A stretch of DNA of 64,000 nt, from the NCBI GenBank assembly GCA_049903315.1, contig JBNGBT010000005.1, positions 160,001 through 224,000 of the forward strand, in the 5' to 3' direction. The translations under genes and the position numbers were made by a program. Below the pieces are notes generated by a model. It saw only the letters and a list, made by a program, of their open reading frames with translations. It searched no databases and had not been told where the DNA came from. Positions 33,110 through 58,035 of the stretch are shown piece after piece. Source of the stretch: Candidatus Cloacimonadota bacterium. GTDB taxonomy: Bacteria > Cloacimonadota > Cloacimonadia > JGIOTU-2. The first letter of the stretch is position 1. Each line of letters starts with the position of its first letter.

Positions 33110-34195
33110 TTAACTCCCAATATTCTTTAACAATTCTTCGTTATTCTTGGTCTTATCAATCAACTCTTTCAGTTTTACGATTGCATCTATTTTATCATAA
33201 CGCAGAAGTTCTTTCCGCAAACGGTTTATCTTCATAAGCTGATCTTCGGGAATGAGCAGTTCTTCCTTCCTCGTGCCGCTTTCCAGGATATTGATGGCAG
33301 GATACACACGCTGGTCTGCGATATCTCTATCCAGAATTATCTCACAATTGCCTGTGCCTTTGAATTCCTGGAAGATCATCTGATCCATACGCGATCCCGT
33401 ATCCGTGAGAATGGTTGCAAGTATCGTGCACGAGCCGCCATGCTGAATATTTCGCGCCAGCCCGAACAGTTTACGGGGCAGTTCCAGTGCGGACGAGCCC
33501 AAGCCGCCGGACATCGTTCTACTCTGAGGATTTCTTTCGCTGCTGTTATATGCTCTTCCCATACGGGTCAAGCTGTCCAGCAGGATGACCGTATCATGTC
33601 CGCATTCCAGTTCCACTTTGATATGGCTGATAAGAAAATTGGAGAGTGTCACATGCGAGCGCAGTCCCTGGTCAAAAGAACTGAAAAAAACCTGCACATT
33701 TGTATTTTGTTTGAAAGAAGTCACTTCTTCAGGGCGCTCATCTATGAGAAGAATGATCACGCGTACTTTGTGGTCGATATGGATAAGTGAATTTGCCATT
33801 TGCTCGAGAAGTACTGTCTTGCCTGCTCTCGGCGGGGAAACGATCAGTCCTCGTGTGCCTTTGCCAAGCGGAATCATCAGGTCGATAATGCGAAGGGAAT
33901 CATACTCGGAAGCGCCGAGTTCAAATTTTTCATCAGGATTTTCAGGCACAAGTTCCGCAAAGGGTGTACGGTTGCGGAACTCATCCGGCTCCATGTCACA
34001 AATAGAAACGATCTTCCCGATCCTTCTTCCATTGATCTCACACGTGATGCGTGCGCCGCTCACCAGCTTATACTGAGAAATGAGCCGATGGGGGAAGTCG
34101 TAATTCGGCCTGTTCCGGTCAAAAGGACTTTCCCATAAAATGGGCGTCTGATTGCCGGAGATGTCGAGTAATCCATGAAAGGTCTTAGATGTCAT
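33110..34195 (-). CDS. rho: Transcription termination factor Rho, short form
   Basis: PPRAGKT, LIDERPEEV, LLDSLTR, FQEFKGTGN, SGTRKEELL. Lacks the N-terminal helical domain. Confidence 0.88.
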   Translation of the reverse strand: MTSKTFHGLLDISGNQTPILWESPFDRNRPNYDFPHRLISQYKLVSGARITCEINGRRIGKIVSICDMEPDEFRNRTPFAELVPENPDEKFELGASEYDSLRIIDLMIPLGKGTRGLIVSPPRAGKTVLLEQMANSLIHIDHKVRVIILLIDERPEEVTSFKQNTNVQVFFSSFDQGLRSHVTLSNFLISHIKVELECGHDTVILLDSLTRMGRAYNSSERNPQSRTMSGGLGSSALELPRKLFGLARNIQHGGSCTILATILTDTGSRMDQMIFQEFKGTGNCEIILDRDIADQRVYPAINILESGTRKEELLIPEDQLMKINRLRKELLRYDKIDAIVKLKELIDKTKNNEELLKNIGS

Positions 34196-34254
34196 TGAAC
34201 CGACTTTGGTTGAGCTGAAATTGATGTCAAGAAAGGGAAGAGAAATAAACAATT

Positions 34255-35462: not shown

Positions 35463-36518
35463 ATGAAATATACAGTAGGAAGCTTATTCGCAGGAATTGG
35501 GGGAATCTGCAAAGGATTTGAGAATGCAGGAGCTAAAATTGTTTGGGCTAATGAAATTGATAAAAATGCATGTATAACTTACAGATTAAACTTTAATCAT
35601 AAATTATATGAAGAAGATATAAATAGATTAACAAGAAAAGATAAAATAAAAAATCTACCTGAAGTAGATATAATTACATCAGGATTTCCATGCCAGGCAT
35701 TTTCAATAGCCGGATATCAAAATGGATTTGATGATCCAAGAGGAAATCTTTTTTTTGAGACAGCAAAAGTAATAGATTATTTAAGACCAAAAGCTTTTCT
35801 ATTAGAAAATGTAAAACATTTTGTAGGACACGACAAAGGTAAAACGTTTAAAGTAATTAAAAATGTAATTACAGAGGATTTAAAATATTCATTTATACCT
35901 TTTATATTGAATTCTAAGGATTTTGGAAACATACCACAAAATAGAGAAAGAATTTATATTGTTGGTTTCAAGGGGGAATCATATATAGATTATTTTTCAG
36001 ACAAATTTGATCATTATACTATAAAAGAAGAAGATAAATATAGAGAAATATTAAAGAAGAGAAAAGGTAAGAAAAGCTACACATTAAATTATTTAATACC
36101 GAAACCAATAAAACTTACAAAAAGTATAAGAGAAATAATTGATAATAAGAAAGCTGAAGATAGATTTTATTATAAAGAGAATCATAAATATTATAAAAAG
36201 CTTACAAAAGAAGTGATTTCAGAAAAAACCATCTATCAATGGAGAAGAGTTTATATAAGGGAGAATAAAAGCAATTTATGCCCAACACTAACAGCAAATA
36301 TGGGAACAGGGGGGCATAATGTGCCAATTATAAAGGATAAATGGGGTATAAGAAAACTAACGCCAGAAGAGTGTTTAAAGTTTCAAGGATTTGATAACTA
36401 CATTTTACCAAATACAGCACCATCCCATCTGTATAAACAAATAGGAAATTCAGTTACGGTACCCGTAATTGAGAGAATAGCAAAAGAGATATTACGTGTA
36501 TTAAATTTACGCGAGTGA
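35463..36518 (+). CDS. DNA (cytosine-5) methyltransferase
   Basis: Motif I LFAGIGG, IV GFPCQ, VI LENV, VIII QNRERIY, IX RKLTPEE, X GNSV. Confidence 0.97.
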   Translation: MKYTVGSLFAGIGGICKGFENAGAKIVWANEIDKNACITYRLNFNHKLYEEDINRLTRKDKIKNLPEVDIITSGFPCQAFSIAGYQNGFDDPRGNLFFETAKVIDYLRPKAFLLENVKHFVGHDKGKTFKVIKNVITEDLKYSFIPFILNSKDFGNIPQNRERIYIVGFKGESYIDYFSDKFDHYTIKEEDKYREILKKRKGKKSYTLNYLIPKPIKLTKSIREIIDNKKAEDRFYYKENHKYYKKLTKEVISEKTIYQWRRVYIRENKSNLCPTLTANMGTGGHNVPIIKDKWGIRKLTPEECLKFQGFDNYILPNTAPSHLYKQIGNSVTVPVIERIAKEILRVLNLRE

Positions 36519-36526
36519 GGTAAATT

Positions 36527-37693
36527 ATGTTCATAGATTTAATAGGCCAACAGGAAAAACAAATATACATCAAATTTCTTAAGACATTAGGAGCGCTTTC
36601 AAAGCTGTTTTCAGAAAACACTATACCATACTTAAATTATAGAGTGGCTGAAAATATATTCTGCAAAGCATTTAATGCTCATAATATATCAAGAACCGAC
36701 TGCGCATTTGATGCAAAAAAAGAAGAAATGGGGATTGGGATAAAGACCTTTTTAAACAAAAATGGAAGAACCATGCAGAAAATTGCTGAATTTAATAAGG
36801 ACAGAGCAGAATACAAAGATCTTATCGATAATCCAAAGAAGTTTATTAAATATATATCGAAATTAAGAAACGATAGAATAGAAGCAGCGAATGGTATATT
36901 ACAAACAAGCAATCATATATATCACTGTATTGCAAGGAATGAAAACAAGTTCTTAATATTTGAAGAGCAGATGAGTTATATAGATATTGATGGAATCAGA
37001 AATGTTAAAAAGACAAGATCTTCAATAGCATTTGATGATAGTGAGAATGATTATAATTTCAATTTAAGCAAAAGTACTTTATTTAAAAGATTTATTACAA
37101 ATAATCCTTTGGAAATTGATGTTTCAATAATTGATGATCCGTATGAAGAGATACTTAGATTTTTTGAGCAACAAGATATACATTTTGAAGAACCACAAGA
37201 AGAATACGAAAAGGTAATACTACCATTGTATTCAATGAAAACAAGAAAAGTGGAGGAAAGAAGCGGATTAAACCAATGGAATGCTAGAGGTAGACCAAGA
37301 GATAATAGAGAAGTTTATATACCTATACCGGTTTGGATACACAAAAAATTTCCCCTATTTTTTCCAACTATTGAAAATAGTTTCAAGCTAAAACTGCCAA
37401 ATGGAAAAGTATTAGATGCTAAAACATGCCAAACACAGTATGTAGAAATAAATGGTGAAAGATTGAATAAGGGAAAAGGATTAATGAGCAAGCCAAACAA
37501 AGATCTTGGGAAATGGATATTAGACGATGTTTTGAGAGTACCTGAAAGGAAATTGGTTACCAGGGAGATGCTTGAAAATATTGGAATTGATTCAGTAGAA
37601 ATAAGAAAAATTGATAATGAAAACTATGATCTAAATTTCAAGAAAACAAATAGTTTTGAGGATTTCTATCAGGATATGAATAATAATTTCTAA
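36527..37693 (+). CDS. Type II restriction endonuclease, NgoFVII-like
   Basis: PYLNYRVAENIFC, DA...GIGIKTF (PD-D/ExK-like), QKIAEFN, SGLNQWNARGRPR..EVYIPIP. Directly follows the C5 MTase. Confidence 0.8.
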   Translation: MFIDLIGQQEKQIYIKFLKTLGALSKLFSENTIPYLNYRVAENIFCKAFNAHNISRTDCAFDAKKEEMGIGIKTFLNKNGRTMQKIAEFNKDRAEYKDLIDNPKKFIKYISKLRNDRIEAANGILQTSNHIYHCIARNENKFLIFEEQMSYIDIDGIRNVKKTRSSIAFDDSENDYNFNLSKSTLFKRFITNNPLEIDVSIIDDPYEEILRFFEQQDIHFEEPQEEYEKVILPLYSMKTRKVEERSGLNQWNARGRPRDNREVYIPIPVWIHKKFPLFFPTIENSFKLKLPNGKVLDAKTCQTQYVEINGERLNKGKGLMSKPNKDLGKWILDDVLRVPERKLVTREMLENIGIDSVEIRKIDNENYDLNFKKTNSFEDFYQDMNNNF

Positions 37694-37812
37694 GGTTAAA
37701 CAAAACTTTATGAATTTAAATATCTGTTTAATTTATAAGAAATTTGACAAATATTGAATGTTTTAAAAAAAACCAATCTGAATTTTTTAAAAAGAATGTT
37801 AGGGGTAGAAAC

Positions 37813-38742
37813 GTGGATGTGATAAAGAAATTGATTGAAACAGATCAGGAAAAAAGAAAACTCTTTGAAGAGATAATGGAACAAAACAGAATAAAATGGA
37901 ATAATGTTTTAGAACCAGAAACAATATTTAAATGGTTAAAAAACTTTAACGGAGAAAATGAAAAAGAGTACCTATACGCGTTAAAAATTGCAAATGAGAT
38001 ATATTACTGCGACAAAAAAGGTATTGAGCAATTATGGGGATATGTTGTAAATAATAGAATGAGAGAATATATTCACGAAAAAAAATTCGCAGAATGTAAA
38101 ACTAACGAATTTATTAAAAATTATATTGAATATGTAAACAAAAGTTGTGTATTTGTTGGTTATGGAGAAGCTGGGAAAAGTGGAAATGCAATGATTTATT
38201 CGCTTAGAAATGCAATTGAAAATTCTGATTTTAATTTCTTAACATTAGATGAATTATATAGAGAGAATTTGGAAACATTTAGTTATGTAGTTCTGGTAGA
38301 TGATTTTATAGGTACTGGAAACCAAGCTACAAAAAATTGGGAAAAAAAGAGGGAAATAGATGGGGAAAAAATCAGCCTAGAGGATATTAAAAAAAAATAT
38401 AAAAATATTGAGTTTCTTTATATTGCATTAATTGCGACTAGAGAAGGAAAAAAGAAAATAGAAAAAAATACTTCAATAAAAGTATTTTGGGGAGATGTAA
38501 TTGATGAAACATATAAATGTTTTTCAGAAGTATCAAGAATATTTACTGATAGTGAAGAAAGAGAGGAAGCAAAAGAAATTATTGAAAGAAAGGGAAAATT
38601 ATTATATGAACATCCTCTTGGATATGAGAATGGGCAGTTAACAATAGCCTTTGAGCATAATACACCCAATAACTCTTTGCCGGTAATTTGGAAAAAAATT
38701 AGAAACGGTGGCTGGTTCCCACTTTTTGAGAGGAAAAAATGA
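37813..38742 (+). CDS. Phosphoribosyltransferase-like protein
   Basis: PRPP-loop VVLVDDFIGTGNQ, GKSG, C-terminal PLGY...FEHNTPNNSLPVIW...WFPLFER. GTG at 37813 follows aggggt; the ORF extends upstream to 37744. Confidence 0.8.
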   Translation: MDVIKKLIETDQEKRKLFEEIMEQNRIKWNNVLEPETIFKWLKNFNGENEKEYLYALKIANEIYYCDKKGIEQLWGYVVNNRMREYIHEKKFAECKTNEFIKNYIEYVNKSCVFVGYGEAGKSGNAMIYSLRNAIENSDFNFLTLDELYRENLETFSYVVLVDDFIGTGNQATKNWEKKREIDGEKISLEDIKKKYKNIEFLYIALIATREGKKKIEKNTSIKVFWGDVIDETYKCFSEVSRIFTDSEEREEAKEIIERKGKLLYEHPLGYENGQLTIAFEHNTPNNSLPVIWKKIRNGGWFPLFERKK

Positions 38743-40736
38743 ATTTTATATCAAACAAATTTGAAGAAAAACATCCTTTTGATGCAGTAAGAGCTGAGGA
38801 TTTTGGAGAAGATTTATTTGAGTTTTATGAACCTTTGGAGCAAATAGTTAGGAATGTTTCTGGAGTAAATATTGAAGGTAATAGACATATAATAATTGAA
38901 GGAGGCAGGGGAACTGGAAAAACAATGGTACTAAAGCATTTAGAGTTTAACATGCAATTAAAAGAATTTTTATATAAAAATGGAAATAAAAAACAAATTG
39001 AAAATATTAATAAGGAGCATATTGAAAACTTTTTAAAAAATAAAAAATTTATTGGTACTTACATACATATTAAATCAGGAGATTTTGATAATTTATGTAA
39101 TGAATTAGAGAGTCTCTTTAAACCAATATTAGTACTAAAAATTACTTATGAATTATTAAAAATACTTATTTTCTTAAAATGGAAAAATTTAATTGAATCT
39201 AAAACAGAAAAGATGATAGTTGAAAAATTTGTACAGCAGATAAAGAAGCCTTTAATTGAAAACGTTGATAATTTTGAAGATATTGAGAAGTTAATAAACG
39301 ATAAATTATTAGATTCATATAACACGATTACTAATGCATATTCAACATACAGGTTAAATGAAATAAAAAAAATGTTTGAAATGCCAATTGTATTACATAG
39401 AAATATTATTTTTAAATTATTTGATTTTATAATATCTAATGTTAAATGTTTAAATAATAAAAGAATATTTATAATTATAGATGAAGTTGAATACCTAACT
39501 GAATTTCAAACAAGATATATTACTCAACTTATAAAAGATTCTGACGATACTTCAATTACATTTAAAGTAGGCACAAGATGCCTTCCAAAAACATTAAAAG
39601 TTGGAAATACAGATGAGATTTTGAAAGAATTTGATGACTACAGAAAAATTGTAATAACAGATGCGTTGAACGCTGCACATAGCGGAACTAAAAGTCATTA
39701 TAGTAATTTAATTAAAAATATACTTAATAAAAGATTACAAAAAAGTTCATATTTTAAAGGGAAGAGAATATGTGATATTGAACAATTGATTCCAAATATT
39801 AGTATTGAAAAAGAAGCAAGAGATATTGTGAGTGGAGGAACTAAGCATTGGATAAAATTTAAAAATGAAATGACGAAATCGAAAACAAAGAGGGAGATAA
39901 ATAGTATAATTGATCATATAAAATATGATAAAAACCCATTAATTGAAAAATTAAATATGCTTTTAATATATAGAGGTTATAGCCCTAAAAAAATAAAAAA
40001 ATTGTATAAAGATTTTTTAGAAGATAAAAATAAAGAATATAAAAATTTGTATAATAAAAACGCTTTTAATCTTTTAATACAACTCTATCATGATTATAGG
40101 AAAGATAAAAGATATGCTGGAATTGACACATACATATATTTATCTTCAGGAATAACGAGGATAGCTTTAGAATTGTGTGGTGAAGCGCTAAACACTGCTT
40201 ATGTATATGGATATAAAACAGAACATGAAAAATCTATTGACATACAACAACAAAGTTATAGTGCAAAAAAAATATCTTTAAAGCAATATGATGGAATAAC
40301 AAAGATACCAAAATGGGGAATTAAAGTACAAAGCTTTATTAATCAGATAGGAACAATTTTTGATGAGATGCATAGAGATATATATTTAGTTGAACCTGAG
40401 CCAACACATTTTGAAACTGATATATCAGATTTATCTGATAAAGCATGCAATATTTTTAATGCTGCATTAAGTTACGAATATATACAAAAAAAACCATCAA
40501 TGAAACCTAAGGAAAAAGGAAAAACAAAAAGAGAAGATTTTATTATAAATAGAATATTTGCCCCGCATTTTAATATATCTTATAAAATAAGAGGAAGAAC
40601 TGTAATACCATCAGGGGAACTGGAAAAATTATTAATAGGCAATGAAGAAGAAAAAAATAAATCAAGAAAAAATATTATAAAAATGAATACTAGAAGAGAA
40701 AGAGTTTTAGAAGATCAAAGCATATTAGAGATTTAA
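38739..40736 (+). CDS. P-loop ATPase, probably ORC/Cdc6- or STAND-like
   Basis: N-terminal HPF, Walker A GGRGTGKT, Walker B IFIIIDEVE, later SSGITR motif. ATGA overlap with the PRTase gene. Confidence 0.78.
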   Translation: MNFISNKFEEKHPFDAVRAEDFGEDLFEFYEPLEQIVRNVSGVNIEGNRHIIIEGGRGTGKTMVLKHLEFNMQLKEFLYKNGNKKQIENINKEHIENFLKNKKFIGTYIHIKSGDFDNLCNELESLFKPILVLKITYELLKILIFLKWKNLIESKTEKMIVEKFVQQIKKPLIENVDNFEDIEKLINDKLLDSYNTITNAYSTYRLNEIKKMFEMPIVLHRNIIFKLFDFIISNVKCLNNKRIFIIIDEVEYLTEFQTRYITQLIKDSDDTSITFKVGTRCLPKTLKVGNTDEILKEFDDYRKIVITDALNAAHSGTKSHYSNLIKNILNKRLQKSSYFKGKRICDIEQLIPNISIEKEARDIVSGGTKHWIKFKNEMTKSKTKREINSIIDHIKYDKNPLIEKLNMLLIYRGYSPKKIKKLYKDFLEDKNKEYKNLYNKNAFNLLIQLYHDYRKDKRYAGIDTYIYLSSGITRIALELCGEALNTAYVYGYKTEHEKSIDIQQQSYSAKKISLKQYDGITKIPKWGIKVQSFINQIGTIFDEMHRDIYLVEPEPTHFETDISDLSDKACNIFNAALSYEYIQKKPSMKPKEKGKTKREDFIINRIFAPHFNISYKIRGRTVIPSGELEKLLIGNEEEKNKSRKNIIKMNTRRERVLEDQSILEI

Positions 40737-40749
40737 TAGTGGTGGAAAA

Positions 40750-41763
40750 ATGAAACTATACGAGAATTTTTCAATAAAAAGATTTGATAAATACTTGGCA
40801 GATAAAAGAAATTGGGATTTTTTTATTACTTGTACTAGTTTTGAAGATAGAAGTATCTCAGTTTCAAAGCAGTTAAAATCTTATAGTAGCAAAATTGAGA
40901 ATACAATAATTGTAAATTATCCTGAGCACGATAATAAAAATAAAAAAAAAAATAATACAAAAAAGATAATTAAAAATCTCAATGAAGTATCAAGAAACTT
41001 AATAATTTATGATACTAAGAGTGTGCTTGAACCATCGCTCGGCATCAAAGATTTTAAAGAATATATAAAAAAAAGATCAATAGAATTTAAAGAAAAAAAA
41101 ATACTTTTAGATATAAGTGTATTTACTAAACCATATTTCTTTTTATTATTAAAAATATTAAAAGAAGACTATAATGTAAATGTTGTGGATATCGTTTATA
41201 CTGAAGTATTAAATTATAATACAAACGATCAAAGAAAAGATTTATTTTCCATTGGCATAAACAGAATTGAACCTATACCGGGTTTCAATGGATCATATCA
41301 AAACGCAGAAGAAGCTTTGATTACTTTTATTGGATTTGAAGGAAATAGGTCATTACAAATATATCAACAAATTAGTCCTAAAATAATAGTAGTGGTTAAC
41401 GGAATGCCTTCTTTCCAGCCAAGCTGGCATATTATGAGTATGAAAAGGAATATAGAATTTTTAAAAGAATCAAAAGGTTATAAAAATCTATTCTATACAC
41501 CAACATATGATCCATTTGAAACAATTCGTGTATTAAAAAAAATTATAGATTTAATAATAATAGAAAATCCAAAATTAAATATTACTATTGCACCACTTAG
41601 CACAAAACCAATTTCCTTGGGAATAGCATTATATTCATTGTATCATAAAAATATAAAAGTTATCTATCCCTACCCTATTAAATATAATACAGATTCATCA
41701 AAAGGAGAGAATAAATCATGGATATATCGAATTAATTTTAATACATTACAAGAAATTTATTAA
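40750..41763 (+). CDS. Uncharacterised protein with two apparent Rossmann-like alpha/beta repeats
   Basis: Intact 337-aa ORF with RBS ggtgg. Repeated motifs SFEDRS / GFEGNRS and LLDISVFTK / IAPLSTK. Confidence 0.7.
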   Translation: MKLYENFSIKRFDKYLADKRNWDFFITCTSFEDRSISVSKQLKSYSSKIENTIIVNYPEHDNKNKKKNNTKKIIKNLNEVSRNLIIYDTKSVLEPSLGIKDFKEYIKKRSIEFKEKKILLDISVFTKPYFFLLLKILKEDYNVNVVDIVYTEVLNYNTNDQRKDLFSIGINRIEPIPGFNGSYQNAEEALITFIGFEGNRSLQIYQQISPKIIVVVNGMPSFQPSWHIMSMKRNIEFLKESKGYKNLFYTPTYDPFETIRVLKKIIDLIIIENPKLNITIAPLSTKPISLGIALYSLYHKNIKVIYPYPIKYNTDSSKGENKSWIYRINFNTLQEIY

Positions 41764-41995: not shown

Positions 41996-43231
41996 TTACT
42001 CTTCCAATCCACCCTTCACAATATCCAAGATCCTCTGTGCGAGTGTGTGCTTTGAGTCCCTGCCTTTGAATTGTACTTCGCCTTTAGCATTTATCACAAA
42101 TATCTTATTATCATCGCTCTGGAAGCCGGAATCCGATTCTTTCACATCATTGGCAACGATATAGTCTGCCTGCACCTGTTTCAGGCGTTCATAACTCTTT
42201 GCAATGAGCTGTTTCTCGTTCAATCCGTGCTCTGCCTTAAATGCAACAAGAATGGTGGCTGGTGAGAGTTTTTTCACCTTTTCAATAATTTTCTCGGTGG
42301 GGGAAAGCTCAATGCTGAATTTTTTGGATGAGGGAAGTTTGCCTTGTGCTTTTTTCTCCAATTTCCAGTCTGCAACCGCAGCAGCGCTGATGAACACATC
42401 CACATTTTTCTCTTTGAGCTTAGAGGTAACGGCATCCAGCATTTCTTCGGTAGTTTCAACCGGAATATACTCACAACCTGCAGGAGGAGTGAGTTTTGTG
42501 GGACCGCTTACCAAAATGCAGTGAGCTCCTCTGCGAACTGCATCCTTTGCCAGTGCAAAGCCCATTTTCCCGGAGCTCTTATTCGTAATGTAGCGAATGT
42601 CATCAATGTATTCAATCGTTGGTCCGGCAGTTACCAGCATAGTCATATCCTGCAAGTCCTTTTTGTAGAGTTTCTGAATGACCATTTCTACCATAGTGTC
42701 CACGCTGGCGATCTTTGCCTTGCCCTCTTCTCGTACCGGTTCGATTACATCGATGTTCGCTTTTTTCAGCTTCTCAATATTTTCCAAAATGAAGGGATTC
42801 TTATACATGCTCTCGTGCATGGCAGGCACGATCATCACAGGAATGCCAGAGCCGATGGCAGAGGTCACTGTAGAAAGCACAGGCGTATCGTCGATACCGC
42901 ATGCGATTTTGCTGAGAGAATTGCCTGTTGCCGGAGCAATGAGCATAAGATCACAACTTTCTTCGTGTTCACCAGCCAGCCAGATGTGCTCGATTTTTCC
43001 GGTTAACTCGGTTGTTACTGGATTTCCAGTAGCCCACTCGAACATTGCAGGAGTCACGAGCTTCGTTGCTTCCTGGCTCATTACCACAAATACTTCTGCG
43101 CCGTGACGCATGATTTCACGTGCTAGGTCAACACTGCGCAGGCAGCCCACGCTTCCGGTTATGCCGAGGGCAATGCGTTTGTCCTGCAGTTCCTGTTCTT
43201 TTGTACCTATTATATCTTTGCTTGGATGCAT
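41996..43231 (-). CDS. coaBC: Bifunctional phosphopantothenoylcysteine decarboxylase/synthetase, archaeal-like N-terminus
   Basis: LGITGSVG, IAPATGN, VPAMHESMY, TAGPTIE...RYITNKSSGKMG, AAAVAD, VAND. Starts MHPSKDI. Confidence 0.95.
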   Translation of the reverse strand: MHPSKDIIGTKEQELQDKRIALGITGSVGCLRSVDLAREIMRHGAEVFVVMSQEATKLVTPAMFEWATGNPVTTELTGKIEHIWLAGEHEESCDLMLIAPATGNSLSKIACGIDDTPVLSTVTSAIGSGIPVMIVPAMHESMYKNPFILENIEKLKKANIDVIEPVREEGKAKIASVDTMVEMVIQKLYKKDLQDMTMLVTAGPTIEYIDDIRYITNKSSGKMGFALAKDAVRRGAHCILVSGPTKLTPPAGCEYIPVETTEEMLDAVTSKLKEKNVDVFISAAAVADWKLEKKAQGKLPSSKKFSIELSPTEKIIEKVKKLSPATILVAFKAEHGLNEKQLIAKSYERLKQVQADYIVANDVKESDSGFQSDDNKIFVINAKGEVQFKGRDSKHTLAQRILDIVKGGLEE

Positions 43232-44379
43232 GATAACACCTCTTTTATGTCATGGATAAATTCGTTTATTACTTTTTTTGTCACTGACGGACGGAGCACG
43301 ATGCGCATGTGCTCGGTAAATAGCGAGATCGCCCAACCCTTGTCGCGCAGCGCTTCTGCAATGAGTACAATATTATATTTCGTCGAGGTCACGCCCACGA
43401 TGTTCATGGTCGGGGATTGGATCGGGCAGAGTTCATTGATCTTTGTAAGCTCGGAAATCAGGTGTTCGCGTACATGCAGACATCGTTTGATGATGTCGTT
43501 GTAGCCCTCGTAACCGAGGTAGTTCAGCATTCCCCAGACCGCAACGACCGATGCGCCGGATCGGGAACTCACAAACGTGGTTTGCGCAGTGTGTCCGCCG
43601 GAGAGATAGCTGACACACCATTCAATTTTCTTGGTCAGGTCCTTGTTTCTGAAAAGGATCCCGCCTGCAGGAATAGGGCACATGCCCATTTTATGAGGAT
43701 CGATAGTGATAGAGCTCACACCCGGGAGTGCGAAATCGAAATCCGCAACATCATAATTTAAATCCTTCATAAAGGGAATCACAAATCCGCCGAATGCCGC
43801 ATCGATATGGAGGTAGAGTTTGTGCTTAATACACAGATCTGACATTTTGGAAATCGGGTCGATCACGCCAAGTTCGGTCGTGCCTGCGATGCCAACTATG
43901 CAGAATGTGTCGTCATCGATAGCTTTCTCTGTTTCTGTGATGTCCATCTGGCGTTGCTTGGTAACTCGAACTGTTTTTACAGTAAGATTTAAAATATTTG
44001 CACTTTTATACAATGAAAAATGTGCGGTTTCGGGCACGATTATAGTATGTTTGCCGGAAAGCTCGCGGTAAGCCCAGAGTGCAAGGAAATTGGCTTCTGT
44101 ACCGCCTGTGACGATATTTCCGTAGGCATCTGGATTATGCAGCATTTTTCCCAGCATGCGAATGGATTCCTTTTCAAGTTTAACAACACCCGGGAAAAGA
44201 TTGGAATCACCAATATTTCTATCAATAAAAGTAGAAAAAAGCTCTTGAGCGAATGTGTCGGGGTAGGTGCACATGGTGCTGATCACATTGCCTTTTTTAT
44301 ATGATTTGTCGTGTTTGAGTGCGGAACGGATCAGTTCGAGCACTTCGTTTTTCGGAAGAGAAGATCTATTCATATACAT
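43210..44379 (-). CDS. mfnA: MfnA-type group II PLP decarboxylase (probably aspartate 1-decarboxylase here)
   Basis: STMCT, NIGD..LFPG, TGGTEAN, AHFS, AGTTELG..DPI, HIDAAFGG, PLP lysine in SITIDPHKMG. Located between panB and coaBC. Confidence 0.85.
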   Translation of the reverse strand: MYMNRSSLPKNEVLELIRSALKHDKSYKKGNVISTMCTYPDTFAQELFSTFIDRNIGDSNLFPGVVKLEKESIRMLGKMLHNPDAYGNIVTGGTEANFLALWAYRELSGKHTIIVPETAHFSLYKSANILNLTVKTVRVTKQRQMDITETEKAIDDDTFCIVGIAGTTELGVIDPISKMSDLCIKHKLYLHIDAAFGGFVIPFMKDLNYDVADFDFALPGVSSITIDPHKMGMCPIPAGGILFRNKDLTKKIEWCVSYLSGGHTAQTTFVSSRSGASVVAVWGMLNYLGYEGYNDIIKRCLHVREHLISELTKINELCPIQSPTMNIVGVTSTKYNIVLIAEALRDKGWAISLFTEHMRIVLRPSVTKKVINEFIHDIKEVLSCIQAKI

Positions 44380-45124
44380 GTTCCTTATCCGGATAGGTTC
44401 CGTCTTTCACTTCTTTTTTGAATGCGCTCACGCTTTGGGAAATGATCTCAAAAAGATTTGCATAACTTTTTACAAATTTAGGATGAAAATCCGGATTCAT
44501 GCCCAGCAGGTCGTTGATCACGAGCACCTGTCCATCGCAGTATCTGCCTGCGCCGATGCCGATTGTCGGGATATCTATACTTTCTGTAATCTCTTTGCCG
44601 AGAATTTCCGGAATTGATTCCAGAACCAGTGTGAATGCGCCAGCCTGCTCGATCTCCTTGGCTTCTCTCAGTAAGCGGTCGTGATCTTTCTGTTTTCTGC
44701 CCACTACTTTAAAAGATTCGTAGGTTTGCGGCAGCAGCCCGATATGTCCCTGAACTGGTATGCTGTGTTCAAACAGATAGGAGATTGTTTTCGGAAAATA
44801 TCCTTCCAACTTGATCGCATCTGCTCCTGCATCGATAAATCGTTGAGCATTTTCCAGTGCAATTTCTTTGTCAGCGTAGGAATGGATCGGCATATCTCCA
44901 ACAATAGGGAGTGAACCTGCCCCCTTTGATACTGCTTCCACATGATAGAGCATCTGTTCCATAGTAACATTTTTCGTGGTCGAATCACCTTGGAAAACCA
45001 TACCGAGACTATCTCCAACGAGAATAAGGTCAATACCTACAGATGAAAATATCTTCGCCATCTGGAAATCATAGCAGGTAAGCATGACCAATTTTTCGGT
45101 TTTCTTAAATTTTTGAATATTCAT
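44366..45124 (-). CDS. panB: 3-methyl-2-oxobutanoate hydroxymethyltransferase
   Basis: MLTCYD, ILVGDSLG, IKLEG, GHIGLLPQ, TIGIGAG, DGQVLV. Confidence 0.96.
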   Translation of the reverse strand: MNIQKFKKTEKLVMLTCYDFQMAKIFSSVGIDLILVGDSLGMVFQGDSTTKNVTMEQMLYHVEAVSKGAGSLPIVGDMPIHSYADKEIALENAQRFIDAGADAIKLEGYFPKTISYLFEHSIPVQGHIGLLPQTYESFKVVGRKQKDHDRLLREAKEIEQAGAFTLVLESIPEILGKEITESIDIPTIGIGAGRYCDGQVLVINDLLGMNPDFHPKFVKSYANLFEIISQSVSAFKKEVKDGTYPDKEHVYE

Positions 45125-45184
45125 AATTTTAGAATTACTAAACCCTAATTTCTAATGACTAATAAAATTTCAAAATCCGAATGT

Positions 45185-45409
45185 CTAATGATCATTCTTA
45201 CAGATGCCTATTTTATGCTCAAAATCTTTCTTAGATTCAGCACAATCAGCTTCAGAATAGTTAGCACCAACACTTGTTCCAGCTTTCACTAGCTGAGTAA
45301 TGAGAGGTAGTGTTATCGGATTCTGAGGAATTCTCTTTGCAAATTCGATGATATCTTCTCCGAATTTAGCTGTTCTCTCTAACAGATCATATCTCTTTTT
45401 ATCAGTCAT
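45185..45409 (-). pseudogene. Truncated four-helix-bundle (23S-rRNA-IVP/Avd-like) protein with heptamer-repeat flanks
   Basis: YDLLERT..F...QLVKAGTSVGANYSEA..AESKKDFEHKIGIC, then an early stop at 74 aa. Flanks carry ttagaaattagaaatttgtaatttgg-type repeats. Confidence 0.8.
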
Positions 45410-45460
45410 TTGTAATTTGGATTTTTATTAGAAATTAGAAATTTGTAATTTGGCATTGTT

Positions 45461-46354
45461 TTAGTATCCATATTTCTCTAAAAATTTAATCGCATCATAG
45501 AGAAATTCATTATAGGGAACAGGAATATTATGTTTTTTTGCCAGCCGTATGATCGCACCGGTAATGTAGTCCAGCTCTGTCCTTTTGCCCTTTTTCACAT
45601 CTTGATACATGGAAGAGTAATTCTTATATTGATGGAGTCGGTCTATAGTTTTGATGACCTTTTCTCTTTGAACAGGGTAGCCTTCTTTTTCTGCAACTGC
45701 AAGCACCTCATCTATCACTTTTACTACAAGAGTTCTTATTTCCGGTTTTGAGAGCATTCTTGAGCGGATCTGCAGCAGTGTGGTAAGAGGATTCACAAAC
45801 GCGTTGATCGAAAGTTTGAGCCATTCTTCCTGTTTGATATCATCAGAAATACTCGTGTCGAAGGTGCTTTTAGAAAATATTGCATACACTTTTTCTGCAG
45901 ATTTTGAATTCTCGAGCACAACTTTTCCCCATGAAGTGCGCACCTCGCCGGGACGTATGATCTCTGCGCCAATACCTGTCACTGCGCGGATGATCTCATT
46001 GGGAAGGATGTCCGTTACTTCCTCTTTTATACCGATACCATTTTGTATGAGCATGAAAACAGTGTCGTTTTTCACAATATTTTTGAGGTCTTCGAATACG
46101 GTTTTGACATCATATGCTTTCGTAGTAACGATCACAAGGGAATTCGCGGGAATCTTTTTTAATTCCCTTGTAGTGAGGACCTTACTCATAACTGTCTGGA
46201 AGCCGGACAAGAGAATTCCATTTTTTTGTATGACTTTAAAGTGATCTTTGTGGTGATGTTCCTTTTTCCCGACAAGCGTGACATCATACTCGCGTGAGAT
46301 CACAGCTGCCAGGTAGGTGCCGATTGCACCGGCTCCGATTATAATGATATTCAT
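45461..46354 (-). CDS. panE: 2-dehydropantoate 2-reductase
   Basis: GAGAIG, TTKAYD, IQNGIG, WLKLSINAFVNPLT, SSMYQD, TELDYITG. Confidence 0.93.
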   Translation of the reverse strand: MNIIIIGAGAIGTYLAAVISREYDVTLVGKKEHHHKDHFKVIQKNGILLSGFQTVMSKVLTTRELKKIPANSLVIVTTKAYDVKTVFEDLKNIVKNDTVFMLIQNGIGIKEEVTDILPNEIIRAVTGIGAEIIRPGEVRTSWGKVVLENSKSAEKVYAIFSKSTFDTSISDDIKQEEWLKLSINAFVNPLTTLLQIRSRMLSKPEIRTLVVKVIDEVLAVAEKEGYPVQREKVIKTIDRLHQYKNYSSMYQDVKKGKRTELDYITGAIIRLAKKHNIPVPYNEFLYDAIKFLEKYGY

Positions 46355-47109
46355 GATAGCTCCCTCAAGCGCTGCAAAATGAACTGCAACGCTGATTTCA
46401 GATTTTGCTGATTATCAAAATTATCGCAGATTTTCTGTAATTTTTCAGTAGAATAATTCTTCATTCCTTTGATCTTTTCAGTCATAAGCGGAACTGTGCG
46501 CACAATATTATCCACAATTGTTATCTGCGCTTTCTGTGCAGTGCGGGAGAGGGGATTGAGGTCAACAGTGATGACTTTCTTACCTGATGCCACCAGCGCT
46601 TCGGTACGGTCTCCGTCTTCAAGCGGCACGAATACAACATCCGCAATAAAAATACCTTTCTTTGAAACGATCCTGCGTTTACTTTGCAGTTCTTCGATCT
46701 GAACAGTCTCATCGTCTCCCACTCCAAGGATTTCATGAGCGCCATGCTCCTTCATGTGTTTTAAAAGTTCGTTCTCGCGTTCTTTTGTTCTGTAAAAAAG
46801 ATTTATTTCAAGCGGTGTGTTTGCAGCTTTACCCAACTCGACGATCTCGTCAGGACAGAGCGAAGCTACATTTCCATTGAGAGAAAGTACCGGATGTTTT
46901 GCAAGGAGAAGCATTGCACAGGCAGCTTCAGTAGCTCGTTCCGCAAAGGATTGGGTTTTTTCTCCAATAAGATAATCAAAGCACTCACCTCTGCCGTGAG
47001 CGATCAGACCGGCTTTTGCAACGAGCCCTTTATCAAAGCCATCAATGAGTTTTTCACGAATGTGCAGGGACTGTGCTCTGGGATGGGAATCGGGTACTTC
47101 AATTAACAT
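46351..47109 (-). CDS. Archaeal-type 4-phosphopantoate--beta-alanine ligase (phosphopantothenate synthetase, PPS)
   Basis: SHPRAQSL..RE, GLIAHGRGECFDYLIGE, SLNGN, EINLFYRT, VPLEDGDR, DLNPLSRTA, VDNIVR. Confidence 0.92.
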   Translation of the reverse strand: MLIEVPDSHPRAQSLHIREKLIDGFDKGLVAKAGLIAHGRGECFDYLIGEKTQSFAERATEAACAMLLLAKHPVLSLNGNVASLCPDEIVELGKAANTPLEINLFYRTKERENELLKHMKEHGAHEILGVGDDETVQIEELQSKRRIVSKKGIFIADVVFVPLEDGDRTEALVASGKKVITVDLNPLSRTAQKAQITIVDNIVRTVPLMTEKIKGMKNYSTEKLQKICDNFDNQQNLKSALQFILQRLRELS

Positions 47110-48001
47110 GGGGACCTCCTGTGCTGATGTCCGAAATATAGACCTTGCCGTATTCCTGAAGAATATTTCTCAATTCGTGGGCTTTTTTTGTCGGCTGAAT
47201 ACTGAAAACACTTTCGCCAAACAAAGGCATACTGCAGAGAAATCCATTTCGTTCCATTTTTTTTATAATGTCTGAGACTTGTCCGGTTGCGACTTCGATC
47301 TTCTTCACAAACCACTGTGAGAGTTCAAGAAAGCGTTCTACTGAGGGATCTTTGAGCAAAGTATCTACGCAGTTTTTTCCGAATGTATGCACCTTATCCA
47401 TCAAATTTTTATCAGAGAGGGCTTCCTTCGTTTGATAGGGACCGAAGTATAAGACAATCACTTTATAATCTTCATCGAGCGGAATGGTTTCCACTTTTCC
47501 GATGCCTGGACCACCAAATGCAACCCTAATCTCCAATCCGCCAGCAATCTCTGCCATGACTGTGCCCAATCCGCCTTTGTTTTCTACATCAGCTATATGA
47601 GCAAGCTGAAAGCACTTTTCGTCAGAAATGTCTATATTGAAAATTTTTCTTAGAGCAAGTGCCAAACTTAATGCACCGCTTCCGCTTGTTCCAAATCCCG
47701 CATTGAGAGGCATTTCCATTGTATGTTGAATGTTAATTATGTAGTTGTCTTTTATGTATTTATCAAAAAATTTATCCAAAAGCCAGTGTGTCAGTTCTGC
47801 ATCCGATCTTTCGCCATTAATGAAAACAGAAACTTCATTTTGAGATGAAGGATGCGCTTCGACTTGTGTGGTTGTTCCCCGCATCAAGTTCACGCCAGCG
47901 CCAAGAGAGCTGCTCTGCATCGGATCACTATCTATTTTTGAATAGAAAAATCCCGTAATATGATTCGGAGCCCATGCAGAAGCGGTTTTTGTATTATGCA
48001 T
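47099..48001 (-). CDS. Archaeal-type pantoate kinase (PoK, GHMP kinase family)
   Basis: APNHITGFF, LGAG, GHMP loop PLNAGFGTSGSGALS, AHIADVENKGGLG, GGLEIR...GGPG. Overlaps the PPS gene. Confidence 0.88.
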   Translation of the reverse strand: MHNTKTASAWAPNHITGFFYSKIDSDPMQSSSLGAGVNLMRGTTTQVEAHPSSQNEVSVFINGERSDAELTHWLLDKFFDKYIKDNYIINIQHTMEMPLNAGFGTSGSGALSLALALRKIFNIDISDEKCFQLAHIADVENKGGLGTVMAEIAGGLEIRVAFGGPGIGKVETIPLDEDYKVIVLYFGPYQTKEALSDKNLMDKVHTFGKNCVDTLLKDPSVERFLELSQWFVKKIEVATGQVSDIIKKMERNGFLCSMPLFGESVFSIQPTKKAHELRNILQEYGKVYISDISTGGPHVN

Positions 48002-48398
48002 CAGAATTTTCTTTTGTTTCTTTTACAAAATTTGAAGTAATATTTTTCAATTCTGTGAGTTTGTTCTTCAGGCGTTTCAATGCTCTTTTGCTTTCATAAC
48101 TTTCCATGTCGATCTGCACATTTTCCTTAGTAGAAATATCCTCGACATTTCTCAGCGCTTTTTTCGCTCCCTTGATCTTGAATTTCTTTTCGTAGAGCAG
48201 GTATTGGATCTTTTTCAGAAGTTCGATATCCTTTTGTGTGTAGCGTCTGTTCGAGCCTTCCTTGCGTTTTGGATTGAGCTGCGGGAATTGAGTTTCCCAG
48301 AACCTGAGCACATGGGGTTTGACATCCAGAATATTACATACCTCGCTCATTGTGTAGTAATATTTTGTTTTTTGTAGAGTGATGCTTTTAATGGTCAT
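47994..48398 (-). CDS. MerR-family HTH regulator
   Basis: YYTMSEV...VKPHVLRFWETQFPQLNP...RRYTQKDI...LLYEKKFKIKGAK. Confidence 0.9.
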   Translation of the reverse strand: MTIKSITLQKTKYYYTMSEVCNILDVKPHVLRFWETQFPQLNPKRKEGSNRRYTQKDIELLKKIQYLLYEKKFKIKGAKKALRNVEDISTKENVQIDMESYESKRALKRLKNKLTELKNITSNFVKETKENSDA

Positions 48399-49888
48399 TT
48401 TGCTCTTTTCATTACAAATAATGGTAAAATTATCGAAATTATTATGATCACAAAGCTGAACCAGAAACAGAGTGGTGCGAAGAGGTAGCCGATATTCACA
48501 AAAAAAGTTTTTCTATCTGATTCCTTCACGGTCAGTGTACTTGTGATATTTATTTTTTCATAGACATCCGTTTTGATAACAGTTTTTCCTTTGGGATTTA
48601 CAATGTAGGAGATGCCTGTATTTGCTGCGCGGATAAGAGGAAGTCTGGTCTCTACTGCACGGATCATTGTGTTATTTGCATGTTCATGGGGGAGCACAGT
48701 CTGTTTGAACCATGCATCGTTCGTGATGACCACAAGGACTTCCGCACCGATCTTGGCATATTTACGAGAAAGTTCAGGAAACACACCCTCAAAGCAGATC
48801 AAGAGAGAAAAATTCAGATTATCGATCTTGTATAGAGGATACTCTGTTCCAAACTCAAAATTCGCCTGTCCGAACTGTAATTTCTCAAGAATAGGAAAGG
48901 TGCTGAGGAGAGGGATCCTCTCACCAAAAGGCACAAGCCGTATTTTATTATATTTCTCGTGAAAAACACCAGCAGTGTCTATCATGGTGGCACTGTTGTA
49001 AAATTTATATTTTGGATGATTTTTTACCATTTCAACTGCATAATCAGGGAAACCAGTGAGTACAGATATCTTGTTATCCAATGCATAATTTTGAAGACGC
49101 TTCCTGTATTTGGGCTCATGCAGAATATAGGTGGGAATTGCAGATTCAGGCAGGATCACGACATCTACATCATTTACCTGCGCCAGGATACGCACCTGGT
49201 TTTCATATTCATCGATCGTAGGAATGAGATTCTCTGGTTTCCACTTGTCTTCCTGCATAACATTAAGCTGTACGATCCCGATCTTCAGATCAGAACTTTT
49301 TAGTTGTATTGTCTTATCGCGATAAATTCCGTAGCCAAACCAGAGCACAAAAATTATGAGAATAACAAGTAAATTCCTGGATTTGCCAGAAAGCACTTTA
49401 TAAAGCAGGACATTGATAAACAAAACAAGAAGAGATAATCCGTAAATACCGAGGAGATCGGCAGCTTGTATGAGAAGATAGTATTTTGAAAGAGAATATC
49501 CCACATTCAACCAGGGGAAGTTCAGAGAACCCAGCGTCATTACATATTCGAAGCCGACCAATATAATCGGGAACACCCACAAAAATATCTTAGGGAAGCT
49601 TTCATGCACTTTACGCAGGAAAACAGAGAGTATGGCAAAATACAAAGGAAGTGCAATGATGAGTCCGATGAAGGCGATCAACTTCACATTAAACACACCA
49701 TATAATGTGATCAGTGTGACGAAAAGTCCAAAGAGAAATCCAAAAAGAAATGCTTGTTTCGGAGTTGATTTGATGATAAAATAGAGGTAGGGTATAAATG
49801 CAAAAAAACAGAGGAATCCCACTCCAATATCAATGAAGGAAAGTCCAAATAACAGACCAGCCAAAAGAACAAGAATTAAATTTTTCAT
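48395..49888 (-). CDS. lnt: Apolipoprotein N-acyltransferase
   Basis: Multiple TM helices, nitrilase triad LPES / KIRLVPFGE / ICFE, TNDAWF, RAANTGIS. Confidence 0.95.
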   Translation of the reverse strand: MKNLILVLLAGLLFGLSFIDIGVGFLCFFAFIPYLYFIIKSTPKQAFLFGFLFGLFVTLITLYGVFNVKLIAFIGLIIALPLYFAILSVFLRKVHESFPKIFLWVFPIILVGFEYVMTLGSLNFPWLNVGYSLSKYYLLIQAADLLGIYGLSLLVLFINVLLYKVLSGKSRNLLVILIIFVLWFGYGIYRDKTIQLKSSDLKIGIVQLNVMQEDKWKPENLIPTIDEYENQVRILAQVNDVDVVILPESAIPTYILHEPKYRKRLQNYALDNKISVLTGFPDYAVEMVKNHPKYKFYNSATMIDTAGVFHEKYNKIRLVPFGERIPLLSTFPILEKLQFGQANFEFGTEYPLYKIDNLNFSLLICFEGVFPELSRKYAKIGAEVLVVITNDAWFKQTVLPHEHANNTMIRAVETRLPLIRAANTGISYIVNPKGKTVIKTDVYEKINITSTLTVKESDRKTFFVNIGYLFAPLCFWFSFVIIIISIILPLFVMKRAK

Positions 49889-56769: not shown

Positions 56770-58035
56770 TTAGCTTTTTATAAAATTCGGGTAGAAAATT
56801 CCACCGCTTGGTACAATGTAGCAGGAGAATTCCTCACCTTCTTTGTTTCTCACAAATTCGAGAGCTTCTTCCACAGATTCAGCAGGAATAAAATGCACTG
56901 CTTTTACGAGTTCGGGATCCATAGAGCTGATAACAAGAATATCAGCCTGCTTCAATAATCTGCCTGTGGCGAAAGCGCGATGTCCTCCGATCTGAATATC
57001 TTTTTGATCAACTTTGAAGAGATCATCGACTGTATTGGCTTTTCGCAGTTGTTTTTCCATTTCATCCTGTCCCATATTTTCCCTGCTTTCCGTAACTAAT
57101 ATAACGGTACCCCCCTCTTTAACGAGGTCTATTGTGCTGTTTAATGCCTTCTGCGATTGATAAAAATTTATATCCTTGGGATAACCGCCTACTGATACTA
57201 TCACTGCATCAGCCTTTTCCGAGAATTTTACAGAATTGTTTTCATTGAAGAATTTTACTCCTTCATAAAAGGCATCATTGAGTGAACCTGCAAAGCATTG
57301 AACGAGTTTTTTTTCATGATTAAGAATAGACTGTACAGTAAAATCGATTCCTACCTTTGCTGCTGCTTCAGTCATTTCAAGGTGTATTTTATTGCCTTCC
57401 AGATTTCCAAGAGCAGCGTAATGATGAATAATGTTTGAGTGATTGTGACGTACGGTTTCATACCCGGAAATTCCCGGCAGAACTGATTTTCTTCCTCCGC
57501 CGAAACCTGCAAAGTAATGGGGACTTATCACACCTATTGTGATAATAAAATCAGCTTCTGCGACACGTTTATTTACATACAACTCATTCCCGGAAGCCAA
57601 CGCGCCGAGATGAACAAGGTCGACAGCCCTGCAATCATGATTTGCTATGGAGAAGTTATCGACAACCCAATTTCCGTAATGATAGCGCATTTCCGATTCC
57701 GTCATTTTTCTGTGTGTGCCGTTTGCGACCTGGATGTGAATCGCGCTTTGAGGAATTCCATAGGAGATGAGTTCCTGAAGTATTGTTTTCAGGAGAATCG
57801 CAAAAGGAGCAGGACGGGTAATATCACTAACTATAATAACAATGTTTTGAGGTTGCTTGCTTTTTATCAGCTCGCGTAGAGAAGGAGAAGCAATAGGGGA
57901 TTCAATTTTTTCGCGAATGAGTTCTGCAGGATTATTGTGCGCATCAACATGCTTCATCTCAAGAATTCCCAGTACATTCCTGTCTGGTATTTCGAATGTT
58001 TTATAGCCTTTGCCGTATTTCAGTTTAATTTCCAT
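56770..58035 (-). CDS. Nickel-pincer-dependent lactate racemase (LarA) family protein
   Basis: SDITRP, ANGTHR, NHD, PHYFAGFGGGRKSVLPG, GGYPKDINFYQSQK. Substrate cannot be determined from sequence. Confidence 0.88.
   Translation of the reverse strand: MEIKLKYGKGYKTFEIPDRNVLGILEMKHVDAHNNPAELIREKIESPIASPSLRELIKSKQPQNIVIIVSDITRPAPFAILLKTILQELISYGIPQSAIHIQVANGTHRKMTESEMRYHYGNWVVDNFSIANHDCRAVDLVHLGALASGNELYVNKRVAEADFIITIGVISPHYFAGFGGGRKSVLPGISGYETVRHNHSNIIHHYAALGNLEGNKIHLEMTEAAAKVGIDFTVQSILNHEKKLVQCFAGSLNDAFYEGVKFFNENNSVKFSEKADAVIVSVGGYPKDINFYQSQKALNSTIDLVKEGGTVILVTESRENMGQDEMEKQLRKANTVDDLFKVDQKDIQIGGHRAFATGRLLKQADILVISSMDPELVKAVHFIPAESVEEALEFVRNKEGEEFSCYIVPSGGIFYPNFIKS

What the first reader, a model, noticed from the sequence alone, without database searches (positions are those of the whole stretch)
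41996..48001. Archaeal-type CoA-precursor pathway (PoK/PPS/MfnA-type decarboxylase) as one operon in a bacterium
Seen: pok-pps-panE-(remnant)-panB-mfnA-coaBC on one strand with overlapping start/stop codons. pok overlaps the bacterial merR gene by 8 nt, and merR overlaps lnt. No panC, panD or pantothenate kinase is in the window. Known: most archaea make 4'-phosphopantothenate through pantoate kinase and phosphopantothenate synthetase, whereas bacteria use PanC and PanK. An MfnA/GAD-type enzyme supplies beta-alanine in Thermococcus. Bacterial PoK/PPS is rare (I recall a report for Poribacteria, unverified here). Inference: a ketoisovalerate-to-phosphopantetheine module was transferred between domains and now sits in a host transcription unit.
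Basis: partly seen in the sequence, partly recalled or inferred. Interest (0 to 1): 0.85.

Follow-up and report, generated by a model that had tools for sequence, protein, structure and literature searches.

The report
Archaeal coenzyme A operon in bacterium
One genus of uncultured marine bacteria lacks the usual bacterial genes for the early steps of coenzyme A synthesis and instead carries a six-gene block in the same order as in a group of archaea, so it likely makes this essential cofactor by a route borrowed whole from archaea, a fuller version of a swap already published for one other bacterial group.

Summary
All 10 other genomes of the genus (Cloacimonadota, probably Ca. Celaenobacter) have the same merR-pok junction, so it is no chimera. 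PPS occurs in 11 of 11 genus genomes and 0 of 221 other phylum genomes. PanC and CoaX are in 0 of 11 and PanD in none over its cut-off, and their native sites are empty; bacterial CoaD and CoaE remain. The identical six-gene order occurs in 5 of 20 Bathyarchaeia regions fetched. A closer partial copy lies on a contig labelled TA06. Trees place the proteins beside, not inside, sampled Bathyarchaeia, so the donor and the direction for panE/panB are not settled. Nine sister genomes lack the upper pathway, but fresh coaX remnants in two argue for separate losses rather than rescue of a shared auxotrophy. No activity or transcript was tested. Bacterial PoK/PPS is published (Poribacteria). This scan earlier noted the same operon in another Cloacimonadota genome and the gene pair in other phyla. 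Verdict: a real, well-traceable, whole-block variant of a known swap.

The parts
48395..49888 (-). lnt, apolipoprotein N-acyltransferase (host gene; lnt-merR is conserved across the order)
   Evidence: TIGR00546 above cut-off
47994..48398 (-). merR-family HTH gene (host gene); its last 8 nt overlap the pok start. Insertion site of the block
   Evidence: PF13411; overlap; pok follows it in 10 of 10 other genus genomes and unrelated genes follow it in 9 relatives
47099..48001 (-). pok, predicted pantoate kinase (GHMP family), 300 aa
   Evidence: dN/dS 0.07-0.12
46351..47109 (-). pps, 4-phosphopantoate--beta-alanine ligase, 252 aa
   Evidence: PF02006, NF041123 above cut-off; PDB 3wdk E 1e-81
45461..46354 (-). 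panE, ketopantoate reductase, 297 aa
   Evidence: TIGR00745 above cut-off; trees
45185..45409 (-). truncated four-helix-bundle gene (74 aa), a passenger insertion present in only some genus members
   Evidence: TIGR02436
44366..45124 (-). panB, ketopantoate hydroxymethyltransferase, 252 aa
   Evidence: TIGR00222
43210..44379 (-). mfnA-type PLP decarboxylase, predicted aspartate 1-decarboxylase (beta-alanine supply), 389 aa (387 from the second ATG)
   Evidence: TIGR03812 above cut-off; PDB 3f9t/6jy1 E 1e-71; DPHK lysine kept
41996..43231 (-). coaBC of archaeal type, 411 aa; last gene of the block
   Evidence: TIGR00521; trees

Best explanation
The locus is a six-gene block, fixed behind lnt-merR in one Cloacimonadota genus that has no detectable panC, coaX or panD, and it likely makes 4'-phosphopantetheine by the archaeal order of reactions after being acquired, likely in one old transfer, from a Bathyarchaeia-related source. 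Inferred mechanism: PanB and PanE turn 2-ketoisovalerate into pantoate; PoK phosphorylates pantoate; the MfnA-type enzyme decarboxylates aspartate to beta-alanine; PPS joins the two to give 4'-phosphopantothenate; CoaBC adds and decarboxylates cysteine; the host's own bacterial CoaD and CoaE finish CoA. Shown: genes, order, distribution, empty native sites, purifying selection. Inferred: activities, co-transcription by read-through from the host unit, a single-block transfer, and that the block replaced native genes that were still present or were lost only in this lineage.
For: PPS in 11 of 232 phylum genomes, all 11 in this genus. CoaX in 197 of 232 and PanC in 195 of 232, both 0 of 11 in the genus. 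PanD over cut-off in 0 of 10 other genus genomes and 30 of 31 genomes outside the genus and the nine sister genomes; the weak own-genome panD and coaA hits are HdrA and uridine kinase. Bacterial CoaD and CoaE present. Native coaX site (dtd-coaX-sprA in G223) empty in 5 of 5 genus genomes checked; native coaBC and panD-panC sites empty in G000. Same six-gene order in 5 of 20 Bathyarchaeia regions fetched, plus one cut by a contig end (class label of L203 proteins); in L203 the next gene is archaeal PPAT. Nearest named non-genus hits of PoK are Bathyarchaeia; MfnA and PanB hits are mostly Bathyarchaeia, with one Zixibacteria and two WOR-3 labels. PanB grouping with native Cloacimonadota PanB rejected, p-AU 0.0001. 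CoaBC sits inside archaeal sequences behind branches of 94/99 and 96/99. dN/dS 0.04-0.12 for all six genes, dS similar to host genes. TK1814/MfnA is the aspartate decarboxylase of T. kodakarensis (passages of PMC10102598, and PMC6650551). A separate Enterococcus-type tyrosine decarboxylase with antiporter exists elsewhere in G000.
Against: In no gene tree do the genus sequences nest inside the six-gene Bathyarchaeia; such a clade is merely not rejected (p-AU PPS 0.07, CoaBC 0.06, PoK 0.21, MfnA 0.30). PPS is most similar to Desulfurococcales (63% vs 51-59% for Bathyarchaeia) and its tree is unresolved. A CoaBC clade of genus + TA06-labelled + native Cloacimonadota sequences is not rejected (p-AU 0.14; 0.047 without the TA06 row). 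The PanB clade includes WOR-3 and Hydrothermota-labelled bacterial proteins, and the PanE subfamily holds many unnamed proteins. PoK differs from the T. kodakarensis enzyme at positions 134 (Glu to Asp) and 143 (Asp to Thr), recalled as important (paper not held). Only 28 of 201 Bathyarchaeia genomes searched had a strong MfnA match, so the six-gene order is a minority arrangement there.
Confidence: 0.8

Rival explanations
1. Rescue rather than replacement: a family-level ancestor lost the whole upper pathway and lived on scavenged phosphopantetheine, and this genus later regained prototrophy by taking the archaeal block.
For: Nine genomes of four sister genera lack PanB, PanC, PanD, CoaBC and PPS (0 of 9 each); 5 of 5 tested keep CoaD and CoaE. 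The 12-marker tree nests the genus among them (support 65/94); its sister group was all pathway-less in 836 of 1000 bootstraps, and monophyly of the pathway-less genera without it is rejected, p-AU 0.003.
Against: Recognisable coaX remnants survive in G229 and G225 at 35-51% identity to intact orthologues, which are 48-55% alike among themselves. That points to recent, separate losses after the split from this genus. The family backbone is weakly supported and differs from the RpoB-only tree.
Confidence: 0.25
2. The route was not archaeon to this genus directly: the block passed through another bacterium (the TA06-labelled lineage or an unsampled one), or panE-panB are of bacterial origin and joined the archaeal genes before the move.
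For: L222 carries panB-mfnA-coaBC in the same order at 59-64% identity, closer than any Bathyarchaeia copy, and NCBI labels its proteins TA06. It or its cluster-mates are sister to the genus in CoaBC, MfnA, PoK and PanB trees (96-100). Cluster members for PoK, PanB, MfnA and CoaBC all list a 22,976-base contig. PanE and PanB of the six-gene Bathyarchaeia do not group with other archaeal PanE/PanB.
Against: The TA06 label rests on one 4.2 kb binned contig; its host could not be checked, so it could equally be an archaeal contig close to the true donor. This rival changes the path, not the function.
Confidence: 0.45
3. The enzymes have drifted in function: PoK works mainly as a pantothenate-salvage kinase, or MfnA as a tyrosine or glutamate decarboxylase.
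For: Two changed PoK positions; TIGR03812 is named tyrosine decarboxylase.
Against: Thr at 143 is shared with 7 of 8 Bathyarchaeia loci, 11 other archaeal loci and 97 of 97 further database hits. No other route to phosphopantothenate or PanD was found. All six genes are kept together under purifying selection. A dedicated tyrosine decarboxylase exists elsewhere.
Confidence: 0.08
4. Assembly or binning chimera joining an archaeal contig to a bacterial one.
For: None found.
Against: Same merR-pok junction in 10 of 10 other genus genomes at 62-92% PoK identity; single contigs in three of four runs span it and no joints were listed (these runs may be the source of the DNA).
Confidence: 0.01

Closest known systems
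Archaeal CoA pathway of Thermococcus kodakarensis: PoK (PDB 6jbc), PPS (PDB 3wdk), aspartate decarboxylase TK1814/MfnA
   Same: Same enzyme families for pantoate to 4'-phosphopantothenate and for beta-alanine (pathway from passages of PMC6650551).
   Different: Here in a bacterium, as one block; the last two steps use bacterial CoaD and CoaE. PoK has Asp and Thr where the Thermococcus enzyme has Glu134 and Asp143.
PoK/PPS of sponge-associated Poribacteria (Thomes and Lescure 2020, PMC7883664; parts 1-2 of 3 of the text read)
   Same: A bacterial subgroup uses PoK and PPS, lacks PanK and PS, keeps bacterial DPCK, while relatives use the bacterial route.
   Different: That paper reports only PoK and PPS as archaeal, closer to Euryarchaeota, with no KPR found and 0 uses of 'operon', 'Cloacimon' or 'Bathy'. 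Here six genes, including MfnA, PanE and an archaeal-type CoaBC, come in the gene order of a Bathyarchaeia subgroup.
Six-gene CoA operon of a Bathyarchaeia subgroup (L203-L206, L208)
   Same: Identical order pok-pps-panE-panB-mfnA-coaBC; 37-40%, 52-59%, 33-37%, 53-58%, 48-52% and 51-53% identity.
   Different: L203 continues with archaeal PPAT, which the bacterium lacks at this place; the genus sequences branch beside, not within, these archaea.
PLP-dependent aspartate decarboxylases in bacteria (PanP; DVU0867, passages of PMC10102598)
   Same: Bacteria without PanD can use a group II PLP decarboxylase for beta-alanine.
   Different: The window protein passes the archaeal MfnA model and scores far below PanP (100 vs cut-off 606).

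Membership tests
Archaeal PoK/PPS route | PPS family protein above curated cut-off | tested here: met
   PF02006 248 bits; NF041123 312 vs 300; PDB 3wdk
Archaeal PoK/PPS route | GHMP kinase orthologous to pantoate kinase, adjacent to pps | tested here: met
   Only PDB match 6jbc over residues 9-298; groups with named pantoate kinases; below the two lineage-specific NCBIfam cut-offs
Archaeal PoK/PPS route | PoK active-site residues as in T. kodakarensis (Ser104, His131, Glu134, Asp143, Arg155; list recalled) | tested here: inconclusive
   Ser, His, Arg kept; Glu134 is Asp, Asp143 is Thr; Thr is shared with Bathyarchaeia and some other archaea; source paper not held
Archaeal PoK/PPS route | No PanC and no PanK in the genome | tested here: met
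   the type II search lacked a positive control
Archaeal PoK/PPS route | Measured pantoate kinase and PPS activity | not testable with these tools
   needs enzyme assay or complementation
MfnA/ADC archaeal aspartate decarboxylase | TIGR03812 above cut-off, PLP lysine kept, no PanD | tested here: met
MfnA/ADC archaeal aspartate decarboxylase | Preference for aspartate over tyrosine or glutamate | not testable with these tools
   inferred from operon context only
Fully archaeal CoA pathway | Archaeal PPAT and archaeal DPCK for the last two steps | tested here: not met
   bacterial CoaD (TIGR01510) and CoaE (PF01121) present; no PPAT after coaBC in the window; archaeal DPCK was not searched
Transfer from the six-gene Bathyarchaeia subgroup | Shared gene order | tested here: met
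   5 of 20 regions fetched
Transfer from the six-gene Bathyarchaeia subgroup | Gene trees nest the bacterial copies within that subgroup | tested here: inconclusive
   not nested in any best tree, not rejected by AU tests
Single transcription unit with lnt-merR | One transcript across merR-pok | not testable with these tools
   overlaps only; promoter and terminator scans at chance level

The most novel reading that the evidence does not exclude
The whole upper CoA pathway, from ketoisovalerate and aspartate to phosphopantetheine, moved as one self-contained six-gene block from Bathyarchaeia-related archaea into bacteria and then between two bacterial phyla, fully displacing the native pathway in a family whose other members keep only CoaD and CoaE and must scavenge phosphopantetheine.
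Probability: 0.35. Interest if true: 0.68.

Novelty: new variant of a known kind. Interest (0 to 1): 0.5.

Why it matters
It further weakens PoK/PPS as an archaeal marker. It also gives an unusually clean case of whole-pathway replacement across domains for an essential cofactor, with a matching archaeal gene order, empty native sites and a defined insertion point. The six genes should be portable, so the archaeal route, including the Thr-type PoK of Bathyarchaeia and the MfnA beta-alanine step, can be tested in E. coli with genes already adapted to a bacterium. The pathway-less sister genera point to an open question of how free-living bacteria obtain phosphopantetheine.

Tried and rejected
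Chimera: rejected. Native panD or coaA elsewhere in the genome: weak hits were HdrA and uridine kinase. One shared ancestral loss followed by rescue: attractive, then weakened by coaX remnants. Recent acquisition: not supported; GC3 of pok to panB (0.39-0.44) resembles the flanking host genes (0.41-0.45), though mfnA and coaBC are at the 98-99th percentile of the genome. Promoter and terminator scans gave chance-level counts (38 vs 30.7 +/- 5.8; 10 vs 9.7). Expression: no RNA holder listed. Context of the TA06-like PoK: metagenome scan empty; the MfnA scan gave one 4.2 kb contig, whose genome is not held; its HAD neighbour was uninformative (best 35%). PPS on plasmids: no match. Source of ketoisovalerate: IlvD in 0 of 5 genomes; a recalled IlvE motif found no credible protein, which is not sensitive enough to show absence. 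Papers on PoK residues and on TK1814 were not held (search found nothing relevant). Trees used hand-picked subsets of the loci held (for example 42 of 101 CoaBC rows, 45 of 92 PPS rows, PanB 36 of 100 plus 13 database hits), mostly with LG+G4; one listed CoaBC row (L271) was not in the set used.
Full report
Observation. PPS, PanE, PanB, MfnA and CoaBC pass curated family cut-offs. The kinase is a GHMP protein whose only solved relative is T. kodakarensis pantoate kinase. Neighbouring genes overlap by 4 to 22 nt at every junction from lnt to coaBC except panE-panB, where 336 nt hold a truncated four-helix-bundle gene. That gene is intact in two relatives and missing in others, so it is a passenger.

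Host and distribution. The nine closest genome loci are Cloacimonadota, one titled Ca. Celaenobacter antarcticus, so the window's genus is probably that one (inference). PPS is in 11 of 232 phylum genomes, all 11 members of this genus. CoaX (197 of 232) and PanC (195 of 232) are the phylum norm and are in 0 of 11 genus genomes. PanD passes its cut-off in 0 of 10 other genus genomes and in 30 of 31 genomes outside the genus and its nine pathway-less sisters (50 genomes chosen by me). In the own genome (96.4% complete) PanC, CoaX and type II kinase gave no match, the last without a positive control; weak PanD and CoaA hits are HdrA and uridine kinase. Bacterial CoaD and CoaE are present. The places where relatives keep coaX, coaBC and panD-panC are closed up in G000, and the coaX site is empty in 5 of 5 genus genomes checked.

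Not an artefact. pok follows merR in 10 of 10 other genus genomes. In nine relatives lnt-merR is present but followed by unrelated genes (judged by eye), so the 3' side of merR is a variable insertion site. Single contigs of three of four sequencing runs span the junction; the fourth is broken by a small bubble inside merR. These runs may be the source of the DNA, so the cross-species synteny is the real test. All six genes show dN/dS of 0.04-0.12 with synonymous distances like those of recJ and lnt: the block is old and under selection.

Origin. Of 201 genomes drawn from the Bathyarchaeia class, 28 have a strong MfnA match. I fetched 20 regions around the best matches; five hold the exact order pok-pps-panE-panB-mfnA-coaBC and one more is cut by a contig end. 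L203 proteins carry Bathyarchaeia labels and the block there continues with archaeal PPAT. None of the 71 archaeal loci shows this order. A 4.2 kb contig whose proteins NCBI labels TA06 has panB-mfnA-coaBC at 59-64% identity, closer than any archaeon. In trees the genus and this lineage form one clade for CoaBC, MfnA, PoK and PanB. Descent from native Cloacimonadota PanB is rejected (p-AU 0.0001). For CoaBC the best tree puts the clade inside archaea, but a bacterial clade is not formally rejected (p-AU 0.14). Against a simple story, no tree nests the genus inside the six-gene Bathyarchaeia (not rejected either: p-AU 0.06-0.30). PPS is unresolved and most alike to Desulfurococcales. The PanB and PanE subfamilies include bacterial-labelled or unnamed proteins. 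Gene order is therefore the strongest link to Bathyarchaeia; the exact donor, and the direction for panE and panB, remain open.

Order of events. Nine genomes of four sister genera (six of them over 90% complete) lack PanB, PanC, PanD, CoaBC and PPS, while 5 of 5 tested keep CoaD and CoaE. A 12-marker tree of 20 genomes nests the genus among them with weak support (65/94) and rejects their monophyly without it. That suggested loss followed by rescue. But G229 and G225 keep coaX remnants that are about as similar to intact orthologues as those are to each other, which implies recent separate losses. I therefore favour replacement, or a loss private to this lineage, over rescue of a shared auxotrophy.

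Mechanism. From established roles of these families (passages of PMC6650551; PMC10102598): PanB and PanE make pantoate, PoK phosphorylates it, MfnA supplies beta-alanine from aspartate, PPS joins them, CoaBC gives 4'-phosphopantetheine, and host CoaD and CoaE finish CoA. None of this was assayed. PoK keeps Ser104, His131 and Arg155 of the Thermococcus enzyme but has Asp for Glu134 and Thr for Asp143 (the roles of these residues are recalled, paper not held). Thr is common to Bathyarchaeia and some other archaea, so it marks a subfamily rather than decay. A separate tyrosine decarboxylase with its antiporter lies elsewhere, which fits MfnA serving the CoA pathway. IlvD was not found, so ketoisovalerate probably comes from valine (inference). 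Read-through from lnt-merR is inferred from overlaps; consensus scans were at chance level.

Prior art. Thomes and Lescure 2020 (PMC7883664; parts 1-2 of 3 read, plus a term search; supplements not seen) reported PoK and PPS in sponge Poribacteria, without an operon, MfnA or a Bathyarchaeia link. Two papers on Ca. Celaenobacter have no mention of pantothenate or pantoate in the main text (term searches only; their supplementary tables were not read and may list these genes). Searches (listings seen) found no report of this operon, but the library lacks most subscription papers. Earlier notes of this scan, unchecked AI notes, describe the same operon in another Cloacimonadota genome and the pok-pps pair in spirochaetes, Bdellovibrionota and Latescibacterota-like genomes.

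Verdict. Real, old and well integrated. It works like the archaeal upper CoA pathway, and passes the sequence and gene-content tests for it; it is not a fully archaeal pathway. New relative to what I found in print are the completeness of the block, its gene-order match in Bathyarchaeia, a probable second bacterial carrier and the pathway-less sister genera. New variant of a known kind; interest 0.5.

Noticed in passing
G222, G224-G231 (genera g2, g4, g5, g6): Nine genomes lack PanB, PanC, PanD, CoaBC and PPS and have no intact CoaX, yet 5 of 5 tested keep CoaD and CoaE: candidate free-living phosphopantetheine scavengers with no known uptake route.
   Followed up: partly
L310:1388-1740 (G229) and L324:3625-3759 (G225): Decayed coaX remnants just upstream of sprA, at the site where G223, G211 and G210 have intact coaX.
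   Followed up: yes
window 35463-41763 (+): AT-rich island (24-30% GC) facing coaBC: cytosine methyltransferase, type II restriction enzyme, PRTase-CE, ORC-CDC6-like ATPase and a CARF-like protein. Not found beside coaBC in relatives; contig depth drops there in two of four runs.
   Followed up: partly
window 45185-45409 (-); L015:9711-10070; L018:7758-8117: Four-helix-bundle (TIGR02436) gene between panE and panB, truncated here, intact in two relatives, absent in others; at least four more copies in G000.
   Followed up: partly
L222 (whole, 4227 bases): panB-mfnA-coaBC on a 31% GC contig labelled TA06, the closest outside relative of the block; host not verified.
   Followed up: partly
L303:2076-5391 (G000:C66): Enterococcus-type tyrosine decarboxylase beside a TyrP/GadC-like antiporter.
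   Followed up: no
L103-L107, 3' of merR: In sister genera the same site holds changing cargo that looks by eye like Cas6 or nucleotidyltransferase/HEPN pairs (labels recalled, not scanned).
   Followed up: no
L020:8810-11806: panB, mfnA and coaBC are synonymously closer to the window than recJ, lnt, pok, pps and panE of the same locus, a hint of recombination of the 3' half within the genus.
   Followed up: no
window 33110-34252 (-) and 56770-58035 (-): A short Rho paralogue and a LarA-family nickel-pincer racemase homologue, both below their NCBIfam equivalog cut-offs except a general Rho model.
   Followed up: no
P0227: An MfnA labelled Zixibacteria nests inside the Bathyarchaeia operon-type MfnA clade: a further transfer or a misbinned contig.
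   Followed up: no
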